A stretch of DNA of 64,000 nt, taken from NCBI RefSeq assembly GCF_045037415.1, contig NZ_CP173438.1; one strand, given 5' to 3'. This DNA comes from Escherichia coli. Lineage in GTDB: Bacteria; Pseudomonadota; Gammaproteobacteria; Enterobacterales; Enterobacteriaceae. The notes beneath the pieces were generated by a model, which searched no databases, had not been told where the DNA came from, and saw only the letters and a program-made list of their open reading frames with translations. Below are positions 3,968 through 7,183 of this stretch, piece after piece; position 1 is the stretch's first letter, and each line of letters starts with the position of its first letter. A program made the position numbers and the translations under genes.

Positions 3968-4864
3968 ATGGCCAAAGAAAGGGCATTAACGCTGGAAGCA
4001 CTACGGGTTATGGATGCGATCGATCGCCGGGGCAGTTTTGCGGCGGCGGCGGATGAGCTGGGACGCGTGCCTTCCGCACTTAGCTACACCATGCAAAAAC
4101 TGGAAGAAGAGCTGGATGTGGTGCTGTTTGACCGCTCGGGCCATCGCACCAAATTCACCAATGTCGGGAGGATGTTGCTGGAGCGAGGGCGCGTTTTGCT
4201 GGAAGCCGCAGATAAACTGACTACCGATGCGGAAGCCCTCGCGCGCGGTTGGGAAACGCATCTCACCATTGTGACCGAGGCGCTGGTACCGACACCTGCC
4301 TTTTTCCCGTTAATCGACAAACTGGCGGCAAAAGCCAATACCCAACTGGCAATTATCACCGAAGTGCTGGCGGGGGCGTGGGAACGGCTGGAGCAGGGGC
4401 GGGCGGATATCGTTATCGCGCCGGATATGCATTTTCGTTCCTCGTCGGAGATCAACTCGCGCAAACTCTATACCTTAATGAACGTCTATGTTGCCGCGCC
4501 GGATCACCCGATTCATCAGGAGCCGGAACCGTTATCTGAAGTGACGCGCGTGAAATATCGTGGAATTGCGGTGGCGGATACCGCTCGTGAGCGCCCGGTG
4601 TTGACCGTACAGTTGCTGGACAAACAGCCGCGCTTAACGGTGAGCACGATTGAAGATAAACGTCAGGCATTACTGGCGGGGCTTGGCGTGGCGACGATGC
4701 CGTATCCGATGGTCGAAAAAGATATTGCGGAAGGGCGGTTGCGTGTCGTCAGCCCGGAATCGACCAGCGAGATCGATATTATTATGGCCTGGCGTCGTGA
4801 CAGTATGGGGGAGGCGAAATCCTGGTGTCTGCGGGAAATTCCCAAACTTTTTAGCGGAAAATAA
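3968..4864 (+). CDS. yhaJ: LysR-family transcriptional regulator YhaJ
   Basis: 298-aa ORF with N-terminal HTH (LEALRVMDAIDRRGSFAAAADELGRVPSALSYTMQKLE), divergent from yhaK. Confidence 0.9.
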   Translation: MAKERALTLEALRVMDAIDRRGSFAAAADELGRVPSALSYTMQKLEEELDVVLFDRSGHRTKFTNVGRMLLERGRVLLEAADKLTTDAEALARGWETHLTIVTEALVPTPAFFPLIDKLAAKANTQLAIITEVLAGAWERLEQGRADIVIAPDMHFRSSSEINSRKLYTLMNVYVAAPDHPIHQEPEPLSEVTRVKYRGIAVADTARERPVLTVQLLDKQPRLTVSTIEDKRQALLAGLGVATMPYPMVEKDIAEGRLRVVSPESTSEIDIIMAWRRDSMGEAKSWCLREIPKLFSGK

Positions 4865-4897
4865 TCGATTAAGCACCTTTTACAAGGTGCTTAATTA

Positions 4898-5263
4898 TTA
4901 TTCTTGTTCCAGTTTCGGATCTGGTCCAAAGCGGTTTTCGCCTGGCGTACCCGCCTGGCAGTTAAAGACGATGATAATAAGCCAGCCGATAAACGGGATT
5001 AAGAATAGCAGTGCCCACCACGCCGAGCGGTCGGTGTCGTGCAGGCGGCGGAACTGAACTGCCCACCATGGTAAAAACACCAGAATACCGTAGATTGTCG
5101 TCAGGATGCCTTCGCCACCGGCACGTTGCCAGCCTAACATTTTATCCAGTAGCCCCAGCACGAACGTAAAGATGATGTTGACCAGAATAAACATCCAGTA
5201 CTCTTTGCGCCGCGCACGACCCCGGAAACCGACATAATTTTTTAGTACTTTCAGATACCAGTC
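4898..5263 (-). CDS. yhaH: DUF805 inner-membrane protein (YhaH-like, 121 aa)
   Basis: ORF ...MDWYLKVLKNYVGFRGRARRKEYWMFILVN...; start taken at MDWYL; length fits YhaH; this is the only DUF805 gene here. Confidence 0.7.
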   Translation of the reverse strand, partial: DWYLKVLKNYVGFRGRARRKEYWMFILVNIIFTFVLGLLDKMLGWQRAGGEGILTTIYGILVFLPWWAVQFRRLHDTDRSAWWALLFLIPFIGWLIIIVFNCQAGTPGENRFGPDPKLEQE

Positions 5264-5397
5264 CATTTTTGCCTCAATTTTGCTCAATCACTTGTTTTTA
5301 AAGCAGCAAATTAAGAATAGACGTGAATGAAATGGCAGTAAATATTATCGCGATGAATTAATAAGGCGCTGTGAAGGATAAGGGCAAACGCAAAATT

Positions 5398-5497
5398 GCC
5401 AGATGCGCTACGCTTATCTGGCCTGCGCGGTCATTGCAACATATTGAATATAAATGTTTTGTAGGTTTGATAAGGCGTTTACGCCGCATCCGACATG
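5398..5497. repeat. BIME: two REP elements
   Basis: gccagatgcgctacgcttatctggcc and gtaggtttgataaggcgtttacgccgcatccgaca. Confidence 0.75.
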
Positions 5498-5523
5498 AAC
5501 AACACGTACTTAGCTAATTATCA

Positions 5524-5550
5524 GAGGCACCTCGTAAGGTGCCTTTTTTT
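5524..5550 (+). terminator. hairpin plus T7 tract (intrinsic-terminator shape in plus orientation), abutting yqjG stop
   Basis: gaggcacc-tcgtaa-ggtgcc followed by ttttttt. Confidence 0.4.
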
Positions 5551-6535
5551 AACCGAAGCGAACATCTCGTCCATGCGGTTCATCGAGATCCTGCCACGGA
5601 CCAATTGAAATAATCCCCGTAGGGTTGATGGTCTTATGGCTGCGGAAGTAATGATTACGGATGTGATCGAAATTGACTGTTTCGGCAATTCCCGGCATCT
5701 GGTAGATATCGCGCAGGAAGCCATACAGATTCAGGTAATCGCTGATGCGGTGCTTATCACACTTGAAGTGGGTCACATACACTGGATCAAAACGCACCAG
5801 CGTGGTCCACAGGCGAATATCGGCTTCGGTTAGCTGGTTGCCGGTCAGGTAACGGTGCTGACCTAAAATCTGTTCCAGTCGCGCCAGCGATTCAAACACT
5901 TTCGCCACCGCCTCGTCGTAGGCTTGCTGGCTGGTGGCAAAACCGGCTTTATACACGCCATTGTTAATGGTGTCGTAAATCCAGCCGTTAAGTTCGTCAA
6001 TTTTCGGTTGCAGGGCTGGTGGGTAGTAATCTCCAGCTTTCGCACCCAGCGCATCAAACGCGGTATTGAACATGCGTATGATTTCTGCTGATTCGTTGCT
6101 GACGATGGTGTGGTTTTTTTTGTCCCACAGCACGGGAACAGTAACTCGTCCGCTGTAGTGTGGATCGGCGTGGAGATAAAGCTGATACAGAAATTCATGT
6201 TGATAGAGCGTGTCGCCGCTTGCTCCCGGAAAACTGTCATCAAAGGTCCAGCCGTTTTCCAGCATCAGCGGGTTCACTACGGAAACGGAAATAAACGGTT
6301 CCAGTCCTTTGAGCTTACGCATGATCAGCGTGCGGTGTGCCCACGGGCAGGCGAGTGAAACATAGAGATGATAACGATCTTTCTCTGCGGCAAAACCGCC
6401 TTTGCCAGTGGGGCCTGGCGCGCCATCGGCAGTGAGCCAGTTACGAAATGCGGAAGCTGAACGTTGAAATTTACCGCCGGTGGATTTGGTATCGTACCAG
6501 GTGTCATGCCAGACGCCGTCAATCAGTTGACCCAT
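5549..6535 (-). CDS. yqjG: glutathionyl-hydroquinone reductase YqjG (Xi-class GST)
   Basis: ORF ...MGQLIDGVWHDTWYDTKSTGGKFQRSASAFRNW...; start taken at MGQLIDG. Confidence 0.9.
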   Translation of the reverse strand: MGQLIDGVWHDTWYDTKSTGGKFQRSASAFRNWLTADGAPGPTGKGGFAAEKDRYHLYVSLACPWAHRTLIMRKLKGLEPFISVSVVNPLMLENGWTFDDSFPGASGDTLYQHEFLYQLYLHADPHYSGRVTVPVLWDKKNHTIVSNESAEIIRMFNTAFDALGAKAGDYYPPALQPKIDELNGWIYDTINNGVYKAGFATSQQAYDEAVAKVFESLARLEQILGQHRYLTGNQLTEADIRLWTTLVRFDPVYVTHFKCDKHRISDYLNLYGFLRDIYQMPGIAETVNFDHIRNHYFRSHKTINPTGIISIGPWQDLDEPHGRDVRFG

Positions 6536-6604
6536 TTTTCTATCCTCCAATAGCAAAAACGAGGAGCTTCCCCCTCGTTTTTTATCGTTAAGTATAGCGC
6601 GTGC

Positions 6605-6997
6605 TTACCACTTTTTATTCAGCAGGCGGTCGATGCTGAATGCGCCTGGACCGGTAATTGCCAGCAGCAGGAATCCGCCAGAAATAGTCAGGTTTTTCAT
6701 AAACATCAGCGAGTTCATGCCTTCTGCAAAATTGCTGTGAAATAAAAATGCCGTCAGCAGCGTAAAGCCCGCAGTAAACAGGGCTGTGGTACGTGTCAGG
6801 AAACCGAACAGGATTGCCAGACCACCACCAAACTCAAGCAGAATCACCAGCGGCAGCATAAAGCCGGGGACGCCCATTGCTTCCATATATTGTTGGGTAC
6901 CCGCGTAGCCAGTAATTTTTCCCCAGCCTGCGGTAATAAACAGAATCGGCATTAAAATACGCGCTACCAGTACACCAACATCTTCTAATTTTTTCAT
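6605..6997 (-). CDS. yqjF: DoxX-family inner-membrane protein YqjF
   Basis: ORF ...MKKLEDVGVLVARILMPILFITAGWGK...; start at MKKLEDV gives 130 aa. Confidence 0.85.
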   Translation of the reverse strand: MKKLEDVGVLVARILMPILFITAGWGKITGYAGTQQYMEAMGVPGFMLPLVILLEFGGGLAILFGFLTRTTALFTAGFTLLTAFLFHSNFAEGMNSLMFMKNLTISGGFLLLAITGPGAFSIDRLLNKKW

Positions 6998-7183
6998 CAT
7001 ACTCTCCACTGCGCCGCTCAGGCTGCTGATTGTTTTTTTGTGCAAGGGCGCGCTATTAGCGTCGTTGCTGTCGATGGAGAGAATCATAAACGTGGCGAAG
7101 CGTGATTGTTAGCAAGGAAAACTGTCAAATATTTTCAAAAAATTTGAGGAATAAGGCCGGAATTTCTCCGGCCAGAGAGGAAG

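What the first reader, a model, noticed from the sequence alone, without database searches (positions are those of the whole stretch)
5288..5551. Plus-oriented terminator-like hairpin with no plus-strand gene upstream
gaggcacc-tcgtaa-ggtgcc followed by TTTTTTT is a well-formed intrinsic terminator only when read on the plus strand, yet both neighbouring genes (yhaH, yqjG) are on the minus strand and two REP elements lie just upstream. It may simply be the yqjG 3'-end stabiliser acting bidirectionally, or it could mark the end of a short unannotated plus-strand transcript.
Basis: seen in the sequence. Interest (0 to 1): 0.2.

Follow-up and report, generated by a model that had tools for sequence, protein, structure and literature searches.

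The report
yqjG terminator hairpin, tail displaced
The hairpin is the ordinary, evolutionarily conserved end-of-gene hairpin of yqjG; it looks like a terminator only on the opposite strand because a repeat-element insertion removed its own U-rich tail and a run of A's sits between the stop codon and the stem.

Summary
An 8-bp G+C-rich hairpin (5525-5532/5537-5544) is followed on the + strand by T7 (5544-5550). Both flanking genes (yhaH, yqjG) are on the minus strand, and two REP elements lie upstream.

The hairpin is not an orphan. A hairpin 7-10 nt after the yqjG stop codon is present in about 60 of 80 Enterobacteriaceae species, with nine different compensating arm pairs. In Enterobacter, Citrobacter and Salmonella it carries a T-rich tail in the yqjG sense, so it is the yqjG intrinsic terminator.

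In Escherichia, about 165 nt holding two REPs lie between the hairpin and its old tail TTATTAATTC. That tail now sits upstream of the yhaH promoter. The sense-strand tail is therefore degenerate (UCUGAUAAUU).

The + strand T7 is the yqjG stop codon plus five A's. It differs from a sister Escherichia species by one C-to-A change.

I found no usable + strand promoter, no conserved + strand ORF, no Rfam family and no annotated gene. The 3'-end and TSS tables I could read show no RNA end here.

The hairpin could still stop stray antisense transcription, for example yhaJ read-through, but nothing requires that. Verdict: an ordinary feature of low interest.

The parts
5525..5544 (-). yqjG 3'-end hairpin. 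The arms are AGGCACCT/AGGTGCCT. The loop is UACG in the yqjG sense and CGUA on the + strand. It is assigned to the minus strand because it is orthologous to the yqjG-sense terminators of other genera.
   Evidence: Searches show the hairpin. In some searches, 50 of 61 species have perfect 6/6 Watson-Crick pairing at the homologous register, with 9 distinct arm pairs; the cross-species control gives 50 of 3028. In one search, 5421 of 5426 E. coli genomes hold the 70-nt segment, 4330 of them at 99% identity or more.
5544..5550 (.). T7 on the + strand, which is A7 on the yqjG-sense strand: the AA of the UAA stop codon plus a five-A spacer, whose last A (5544) also forms the outermost pair of the stem. 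This run is what makes the hairpin look like a + strand terminator.
   Evidence: In some searches, E. coli has TAAAAAAAGG, while other Escherichia have TAAACAAAGG (L005), TAGACAAAGG (L004) and TAACCACAGG (E. albertii, L006). No other correctly called hairpin among the 80 loci has 6 or more A in the 8 nt upstream of the stem.
5515..5524 (-). Degenerate tail after the hairpin in the yqjG sense (UCUGAUAAUU). It is the start of the Escherichia-specific inserted segment.
   Evidence: In one search the tail score is 1.65, against 4.5-4.7 for true T-tracts. One search shows this stretch is absent from the non-Escherichia intergenic regions.
5462..5497 (.). REP palindromic unit GTAGGTTTGATAAGGCGTTTACGCCGCATCCGACA.
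   Evidence: a sub-threshold naRNA4 (REP325-derived) match, 27.6 bits; five copies of its core in the 64-kb window, with 0 expected.
5398..5426 (.). Second REP-type palindromic unit (GCCAGATGCGCTACGCTTATCTGGCCTGC), inverted relative to the first. Together the two form a BIME-like pair.
   Evidence: a weak naRNA4 match on the minus strand; a median of 7 places per E. coli genome, and up to 23.
5355..5377 (-). Displaced tail of the ancestral yqjG terminator (TTATTAATTC, 5355-5364) with a decayed copy of the loop and 3' arm next to it (CCTTCACAGCGCC, 5365-5377). The tail lies at -47 to -56 of the yhaH start site, the position of an UP element.
   Evidence: in Citrobacter and Salmonella, GGTGCC-TTATTAATTC directly follows the hairpin, and MAFFT aligns it to this stretch. 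The E. albertii relic reads ACGCACC-TTCAC-AGCACC. That this is a homologous decayed copy is my inference.
5308..5342 (-). yhaH promoter: -35 TTTACT (5337-5342), 17-nt spacer, -10 TATTCT (5314-5319), start site at about 5308.
   Evidence: Searches show the hexamers and their conservation across genera. (PMC10667835, Table S7, transcription units taken from SEnd-seq) gives the K-12 yhaH-yhaI unit starting at 3252262, 42 nt before the ATG. (PMC5137417): the Salmonella yhaH reporter fusion starts at -43.
5549..6535 (-). yqjG (glutathionyl-hydroquinone reductase), the gene whose 3' end the hairpin marks.
4898..5266 (-). yhaH (DUF805 inner-membrane protein), the downstream co-oriented gene, with its own promoter.

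Best explanation
The hairpin is the 3'-end hairpin of yqjG, an ancestral Rho-independent terminator that in the genus Escherichia has been separated from its U-rich tail.

Shown:
- A G+C-rich hairpin sits 7-10 nt after the yqjG stop codon across Enterobacteriaceae, and its pairing is kept through compensatory changes.
- In most genera it is followed in the yqjG sense by TTTTTTAATT or TTATTAATTC, and then directly by the yhaH promoter.
- In Escherichia the yqjG-yhaH spacer is about 165 nt longer. The extra DNA is two inverted REPs. The old tail now lies beyond them, next to a decayed second copy of the hairpin.

Inferred:
- The intact copy is kept because it still serves yqjG mRNA. It would block 3'-to-5' exonucleases and act at best as a weak terminator. 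The REPs behind it would provide the known REP-type attenuation and stabilisation.
- The T7 on the opposite strand is the stop codon plus an A-rich spacer. A-rich stretches are common upstream of terminator stems, and this one became a perfect run through one C-to-A change in the E. coli lineage.
- The T7 makes the element physically able to stop + strand RNA polymerase. No dedicated + strand gene or RNA uses it.
For: 1. Orthology and covariation. In 80 yqjG loci from different species, a hairpin directly follows the stop codon in about 60. At the homologous register, 50 of 61 have perfect 6/6 Watson-Crick pairing. There are 9 distinct arm pairs, including GGCATC/GATGCC (22), GGCACC/GGTGCC (10), GGCGCG/CGCGCC (7) and GGCGCC (5). 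Arms paired against other species' sequences match in only 50 of 3028 cases.

2. Polarity. The terminator score is +27 for the Enterobacter hairpin in the yqjG sense and -8 in antisense, +8 for Citrobacter in the sense, and -28 (sense) versus +27 (antisense) for E. coli.

3. Insertion. The intergenic length is 109-130 nt in other genera and 285-296 nt in Escherichia. The alignment places the two REPs between the hairpin and TTATTAATTC.

4. Selection on the stem without the T7. The arms GGCACC/GGTGCC are unchanged in E. coli, L004, L005 and E. albertii, although those relatives lack the A7/T7 run and the relic copy has decayed. The segment is nearly invariant in 5421 of 5426 E. coli genomes.

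5. yhaH has its own start site 42 nt before its ATG. yqjG is not joined to yhaH in the list of 588 polycistronic operons derived from SEnd-seq.

6. A local precedent. The yqjF terminator 1 kb away (6560-6577) also has an A-run upstream and therefore T6 on the + strand, although no + strand gene is there. A mapped transcription-unit end (3251006, about window 6553) falls on its minus-strand U-tract.

7. REPs as combined partial terminators and mRNA stabilisers: the abstract of bioRxiv 10.64898/2026.03.23.713779.
Against: - There is no direct RNA evidence for a yqjG 3' end at the hairpin. The curated Term-seq lists of Adams et al. 2021 have no entry for yqjG, yhaH or the coordinates starting 32520-32522 on either strand. 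yqjG is probably poorly expressed in those conditions.
- Without a U-tract the hairpin cannot be a good intrinsic terminator in the yqjG sense. Its present sense-strand role as stabiliser or weak terminator is therefore inferred, not shown.
- Stem-weakening polymorphisms exist: a 1-nt deletion in O157:H7, G-to-A in EC052 and T-to-C in CFSAN061763.
- That the T7 is fixed across E. coli could reflect selection for antisense termination rather than shared ancestry alone.
Confidence: 0.8

Rival explanations
1. The element is a functional bidirectional or antisense-insulating terminator. Under this reading the T7 is selected because the hairpin stops + strand transcription before it runs antisense into yqjG. 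That transcription would come from read-through of yhaJ (3968-4864) past its weak shared hairpin, or from spurious initiation in the AT-rich yhaH promoter and REP region.
For: - The + strand version has every sequence feature of a strong intrinsic terminator: -15.1 kcal/mol, T7, score +27.
- The yhaJ terminator hairpin (4867-4896) scores weakly (-8.7), so some read-through is plausible.
- The T7 was present in all seven E. coli sequences inspected besides the window, from varied backgrounds including K-12 and O157:H7, and the 70-nt segment around it is nearly invariant species-wide.
Against: - A yhaJ 3' end was mapped 45 nt after its stop codon in K-12 (3253273, minus strand), so yhaJ does terminate there.
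- Untranslated antisense RNA running 660 nt (1.3 kb in K-12) would normally be stopped by Rho (general knowledge).
- The hairpin arms are equally conserved in Escherichia relatives that lack the T-run, so the stem's conservation does not depend on + strand termination.
- The genes are in tandem, not convergent.
- No minus-strand (K-12) 3' end near 3252010 appears in the Term-seq tables I could read.
Confidence: 0.12
2. The hairpin ends an unannotated short + strand RNA of about 200 nt. The RNA would start from a weak promoter divergent from and overlapping the yhaH promoter (TAGACG-17-AATATT, -10 at 5341-5346), contain both REPs, and end in a hairpin plus U7 of the kind Hfq binds.
For: - The 3' end would look like that of a typical Hfq-dependent sRNA (hairpin plus U7).
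- A candidate promoter matching 8 of 12 positions exists about 200 nt upstream.
Against: - The tool's scan found no promoter-like site in 4000-7000, against 3.4 expected from shuffles. The best relaxed candidate has only 3 of 6 and 4 of 6 matches in its two hexamers.
- The body of the putative RNA is an Escherichia-specific REP insertion. It is only about 89.5% identical between K-12 and this strain and has a 10-nt indel.
- Rfam gives only sub-threshold REP-like hits.
- Nothing is annotated in the current K-12 RefSeq record, which does include recently added small proteins.
- The two + strand ORFs (5371-5517 and 5495-5608) are implausible. One spans the REPs and the indel site, so it is frameshifted in K-12. 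The other has no Shine-Dalgarno sequence and runs through the hairpin.
- There is no entry in the Term-seq or Cappable-seq tables I could read.
Confidence: 0.05
3. The element is a chance palindrome with no function on either strand.
For: None beyond the lack of direct RNA data for this locus.
Against: - The fold z-score is -4.6.
- The hairpin keeps its position in about 60 species, with 9 compensating arm types.
- The arms are unchanged across Escherichia species while the flanks and the relic copy diverge.
Confidence: 0.03

Closest known systems
Rho-independent (intrinsic) terminator at the 3' end of a gene
   Same: It is a G+C-rich 7-8 bp stem with a tetraloop placed a few nucleotides after a stop codon. 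It is orthologous to canonical hairpin-plus-U-tract terminators of yqjG in Enterobacter, Lelliottia, Kluyvera, Citrobacter and Salmonella.
   Different: In E. coli the U-tract on the gene's own strand is missing (UCUGAUAAUU), having been displaced by a REP insertion. The only good T-run lies on the opposite strand.
Bidirectional intrinsic terminators (A-tract, hairpin, U-tract), as described genome-wide with SEnd-seq for E. coli
   Same: The hairpin is flanked by an A-run on one side, so it reads as hairpin plus U-tract on the complementary strand. The neighbouring yqjF terminator (6560-6577) is a full example with both flanks.
   Different: Only one flank is present here. From my recollection of the SEnd-seq literature, bidirectional terminators lie mainly between convergent genes; these genes are in tandem. 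No converging transcript is known.
REP/BIME elements in 3' untranslated regions, acting as mRNA stabilisers and partial Rho-dependent attenuators
   Same: Two inverted REPs lie immediately downstream of the hairpin in the yqjG 3' region. Their proposed role matches what is reported for REP325 in yjdMN.
   Different: The hairpin itself is not a REP. It is single-copy in the window and in E. coli genomes, and it predates the REP insertion.
Hfq-dependent small RNAs ending in a terminator hairpin plus U-tail
   Same: The + strand 3' end would look like one (hairpin plus U7).
   Different: There is no promoter, no conservation of the RNA body, no Rfam match, and no annotated or detected transcript.

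Membership tests
Intrinsic terminator, read on the + strand | Stable G+C-rich hairpin immediately followed by a U-tract of about 7-8 nt | tested here: met
   An 8-10 bp stem at -15.1 kcal/mol (z = -4.6), followed by T7 at 5544-5550. The terminator score is +27.
Intrinsic terminator, read on the + strand | Lies at the end of a transcription unit on the same strand (an upstream promoter or gene) | tested here: not met
   No + strand gene lies between yhaJ (which ends at 4864) and the hairpin. No promoter matches better than 8 of 12. Nothing is annotated there in K-12 or in PGAP records.
Intrinsic terminator, read on the + strand | RNA 3' end mapped in the U-tract in vivo or in vitro | tested here: inconclusive
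   No entry near the K-12 equivalent (about 3252009-3252012, minus strand) in the Adams 2021 Term-seq tables, the TERMITe supplements or the PMC10667835 tables (files cut when stored). These lists are thresholded.
Intrinsic terminator of yqjG, read on the minus strand | Hairpin a few nucleotides after the stop codon of a co-oriented gene, conserved with covariation | tested here: met
   The stem starts 4-5 nt after the UAA. About 60 of 80 species have it, and 50 of 61 pair perfectly with 9 arm types.
Intrinsic terminator of yqjG, read on the minus strand | U-tract immediately 3' of the stem | tested here: not met
   The E. coli tail is UCUGAUAAUU, with tail score 1.65 and terminator score -28. 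The feature is met in Enterobacter (TTTTTTAATT, +27) and weakly in Citrobacter and Salmonella.
Bidirectional intrinsic terminator | A-tract 5' and U-tract 3' of one hairpin, between convergent transcription units | tested here: not met
   Only the A-tract side is present, and yqjG and yhaH are in tandem.
REP/BIME | Member of the dispersed 35-40 nt imperfect-palindrome family present in many copies per genome | tested here: not met
   The hairpin is single-copy: GGCACCN6GGTGCC occurs once in the window, and the 70-nt segment has a median of 1 place per genome. The two adjacent palindromes do meet this feature.
Hfq-type small RNA gene | Own promoter, conserved RNA body, and a described family or detected transcript | tested here: not met
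   promoter; the body is a variable REP insertion; Rfam; annotation and Term-seq.

The most novel reading that the evidence does not exclude
The REP insertion effectively reversed the polarity of a terminator. Under this reading, yqjG transcripts in E. coli pass the hairpin and end in the REPs. The hairpin, with the T7 acquired in the E. coli lineage, now works mainly as a selected insulator. It would stop antisense (+ strand) polymerases coming from yhaJ read-through or from divergent initiation at the yhaH promoter. It might also define the 3' end of a REP-containing + strand RNA of about 200 nt.
Probability: 0.1. Interest if true: 0.3.

Novelty: new member of a known kind. Interest (0 to 1): 0.1.

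Why it matters
It matters little beyond annotation hygiene. It shows that a terminator-like hairpin pointing the 'wrong' way next to a stop codon can be the gene's own terminator hairpin, seen through its upstream A-run. The yqjF terminator 1 kb away shows the same effect, so such sites should not be read as evidence for hidden antisense genes.

There is one modest evolutionary point. A REP/BIME insertion, with a duplicated and decayed copy of the hairpin, separated a terminator stem from its U-tract. The U-tract probably doubles as the UP element of the next promoter. This gives a concrete example of how REPs can rewire 3'-end formation between tandem genes.

Tried and rejected
- RNAalifold on a MAFFT alignment of 61 post-stop segments gave no consensus structure. 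Loops of different length put the 3' arms out of register. I replaced it with a register-anchored pairing count and a cross-species control.
- The tool's promoter and terminator scan did not list the hairpin on the + strand, probably because its stem extension consumes T's. I scored both strands by hand instead.
- Rfam at a permissive E-value gave only sub-threshold REP-like naRNA4 hits and noise such as isrD, Ms_IGR-7 and csRNA.
- Literature search: no paper holds both yqjG and yhaH. The papers listed for yqjG or yhaH alone, of which only some were shown, gave nothing on an RNA or terminator here.
- Supplements had no entry for the locus in Adams 2021, TERMITe and Cappable-seq. I did not check how complete the held Cappable-seq files are.
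- No supplement text was held for Choe 2022, Dar & Sorek 2018, Conway 2014, Grünberger 2022 or the 3'-seq comparison preprint. Ju 2019 and Thomason 2015 are not held at all.
- I rejected the + strand ORFs 5371-5517 and 5495-5608 as genes. They overlap the REPs or the hairpin, one spans an indel between strains, and neither has a Shine-Dalgarno sequence.
- I considered that L004, labelled 'E. coli E69', might represent an E. coli variant lacking the A-run. None of 5426 complete E. coli genomes carries its version.

Full report
**Setting.** The window is E. coli, 100% identical to strain SK1144 over 5250-5600. It is in reverse orientation relative to the K-12 map.
- The genes around the finding are yhaK (-), yhaJ (+, 3968-4864), yhaH (-, 4898-5266), yqjG (-, 5549-6535) and yqjF (-).
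- In K-12 NC_000913.3, yqjG is 3251024-3252010 and yhaH starts at 3252304, with nothing annotated between them.
- The hairpin, the T-run and about 40 nt on either side are identical between K-12 and this strain. The middle of the intergenic region differs, at about 89.5% identity over 351 nt with a 10-nt indel.

**The observation.** The + strand reads aGAGGCACCT-cgta-AGGTGCCTTTTTTTaa.
- The perfect 8-bp stem is 5525-5532/5537-5544 and T7 is 5544-5550.
- The + strand fold is -15.1 kcal/mol, z = -4.6.
- The last two T's belong to the yqjG stop codon.
- In the yqjG sense the same stem, with a UACG loop, is preceded by UAA-AAAAA and followed by UCUGAUAAUU.
- A d'Aubenton-Carafa-type score gives +27 on the + strand and -28 on the yqjG strand. 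I recalled the formula from memory and used modern energy parameters, so it is only a relative measure.
- Two REP-type palindromes lie at 5398-5426 and 5462-5497.
- The description is therefore correct. The tool's own terminator scan did not list the site, apparently because its stem extension absorbs two T's.

**What the hairpin is.** I fetched yqjG loci from 80 species of Enterobacteriaceae and read the sequence after each stop codon.
- A G+C-rich hairpin starts 7-10 nt after the stop in about 60 of them.
- At the register homologous to E. coli GGCACC, 50 of 61 non-redundant sequences have a perfectly complementary 6-mer 3-13 nt downstream, and 8 more pair with G-U.
- Nine different arm pairs occur, including GGCATC/GATGCC, GGCACC/GGTGCC, GGCGCG/CGCGCC, GGCGCC, GACATC/GATGTC, GGCCCC/GGGGCC and GGCGTC/GACGCC.
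- An arm tested against other species' downstream sequence pairs in only 50 of 3028 cases. This is covariation: the structure is conserved, not the sequence.
- In Enterobacter, Lelliottia and relatives the stem is followed in the yqjG sense by TTTTTTAATT (score +27, against -8 on the opposite strand). In Citrobacter and Salmonella it is followed by TTATTAATTC (scores +8 and +1).
- The element is therefore the intrinsic terminator of yqjG.

**Why it points the wrong way in E. coli.**
- The yqjG-yhaH spacer is 109-130 nt in other genera and 285-296 nt in E. coli, E. albertii and two other Escherichia species.
- In the alignment, the non-Escherichia hairpin abuts TTATTAATTC, which runs straight into the conserved yhaH promoter: TTTACY, then 17 nt, then TATTCT.
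- In Escherichia the intact hairpin is followed by about 165 nt carrying the two inverted REPs. TTATTAATTC appears only after them (window 5355-5364).
- Immediately before that tail lies CCTTCACAGCGCC (5365-5377). It matches the loop and 3' arm of the ancestral hairpin except for a gap and four transitions. In E. albertii the relic still reads ACGCACC-TTCAC-AGCACC.
- I infer that the terminator was duplicated around an inserted BIME. The upstream copy kept its pairing but gained a non-U tail. The downstream copy lost its pairing but kept the tail.
- The tail sits at -47 to -56 of the yhaH start site, where an UP element would be. That would explain why it has been retained.
- The yhaH start site comes from two sources. 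The K-12 yhaH-yhaI unit starts at 3252262, 42 nt before the ATG (PMC10667835 Table S7). The Salmonella reporter fusion starts at -43 (PMC5137417).

**The T7.**
- In the yqjG sense E. coli has TAAAAAAAGG. Sister Escherichia species have TAAACAAAGG, TAGACAAAGG, TAACCACAGG and TAGTAAAAGG.
- One C-to-A change therefore makes the run, and no other correctly called hairpin among the 80 loci has 6 or more A upstream of the stem.
- The stem arms are identical in the Escherichia relatives that lack the run, so conservation of the hairpin does not depend on + strand termination.
- Within E. coli the 70-nt segment is present in 5421 of 5426 complete genomes, 4330 of them at 99% identity or more.
- A few lineages carry stem-weakening changes (O157:H7, EC052, CFSAN061763).
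- A-runs upstream of terminator stems are common. The yqjF terminator 1 kb away (6560-6577) has A5-6 upstream and U5 downstream, so it also reads as hairpin plus T6 on the + strand with no + strand gene nearby. A mapped transcription-unit end falls on its minus-strand U-tract.

**Is there a + strand transcript?**
- The tool found no promoter-like site in 4000-7000.
- A relaxed scan of 4860-5560 gives at best 8 of 12 matches on the + strand: TAGACG, 17 nt, AATATT, overlapping the yhaH -35.
- The body of any such RNA would be the variable, Escherichia-specific REP insertion.
- Rfam gives nothing above threshold.
- The + strand ORFs are not credible.
- The nearest + strand gene is yhaJ. Its shared hairpin (4867-4896) scores weakly, but a yhaJ 3' end is mapped 45 nt after its stop codon in K-12.
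- The Term-seq (Adams 2021) and Cappable-seq (Ettwiller 2016) tables I could read have no entry in the region on either strand. This is weak negative evidence.
- Several other datasets could not be read.

**Mechanism, as best supported.**
- yqjG transcripts reach a stable hairpin 4-5 nt after the stop codon.
- Without a U-tract, most polymerases probably continue into the REPs. There, attenuation (partly Rho-dependent) and 3'-exonuclease blocking are the reported behaviour of REPs (preprint abstract).
- Decay back to the hairpin, or weak termination at it, would then define the stable 3' end.
- yhaH starts from its own promoter beyond the REPs.
- The + strand T7 gives the element the capacity to stop antisense polymerases. 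Whether that capacity is ever used is unknown.

**Probabilities.**
- yqjG 3'-end hairpin with an incidental T7: 0.8
- Selected antisense insulator: about 0.12
- Independent + strand RNA: about 0.05
- Chance palindrome: about 0.03

**Novelty and verdict.** This is an ordinary terminator-type hairpin beside ordinary REPs. I did not find this particular instance annotated or described anywhere. The small point of interest is the evolutionary one: a REP insertion uncoupled a terminator stem from its U-tract. Interest is 0.1.

Noticed in passing
window 4864-5266, compared with L001 2054-3017: This strain has no yhaI. K-12 has yhaH followed by yhaI; here yhaH ends ...KLEQE instead of ...KLEP and runs straight into the hairpin 4867-4896, which it shares with the convergent yhaJ. 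This looks like a deletion whose junction lies at the last codons of yhaH.
   Followed up: partly
L086 1519-2270 (E. coli strain MEW), equivalent to window about 5550: An IS200C copy is inserted exactly between the T7 run and the AACCG of the yqjG stop region. The insertion recreates a TAA stop for yqjG.
   Followed up: partly
window 6553-6583: The yqjF-yqjG terminator hairpin (6560-6577) has an A-run upstream and a T-run downstream, so it looks like a terminator on both strands. A transcription-unit end mapped in K-12 at 3251006 corresponds to about window 6553, at the end of its minus-strand U-tract.
   Followed up: partly
window 5355-5377: This stretch holds a decayed second copy of the yqjG hairpin next to the displaced tail TTATTAATTC. 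The tail lies at -47 to -56 of the yhaH start site, which suggests the ancestral terminator U-tract doubles as an UP element for yhaH. A 10-nt indel next to it is polymorphic among Escherichia.
   Followed up: partly
L084 (O157:H7 strain 7409), equivalent to window 5540-5560: This O157:H7 sequence has a 1-nt deletion in the 3' arm (GGTGC-TTTTTTT) and a G-to-T change that turns the penultimate YqjG residue from F to L. The stem then pairs better on the + strand, through G-U pairs, than on the yqjG strand.
   Followed up: no
window 4000-7000 (tool behaviour): The terminator scan did not report the hairpin-plus-T7 at 5525-5550 on the + strand. The likely cause is that its maximal stem extension pairs two T's with the upstream AG, leaving fewer than 5 T in the tail window (one search compared).
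   Followed up: no
L004 (CP089930.1, labelled E. coli strain E69) and L007 (Escherichia sp. MOD1-EC7003): L004's version of the hairpin flank is found in none of 5426 complete E. coli genomes, so the record probably belongs to a cryptic Escherichia lineage. L007 has a weaker hairpin, and no yhaH-like start was found within 700 nt downstream.
   Followed up: no
window 5266-5308: The yhaH 5' untranslated region is about 42 nt long. In Salmonella, yhaH is a validated target of the small RNA SdsR, shown with a reporter spanning -43 to +45 (PMC5137417). The region is highly conserved across genera.
   Followed up: no
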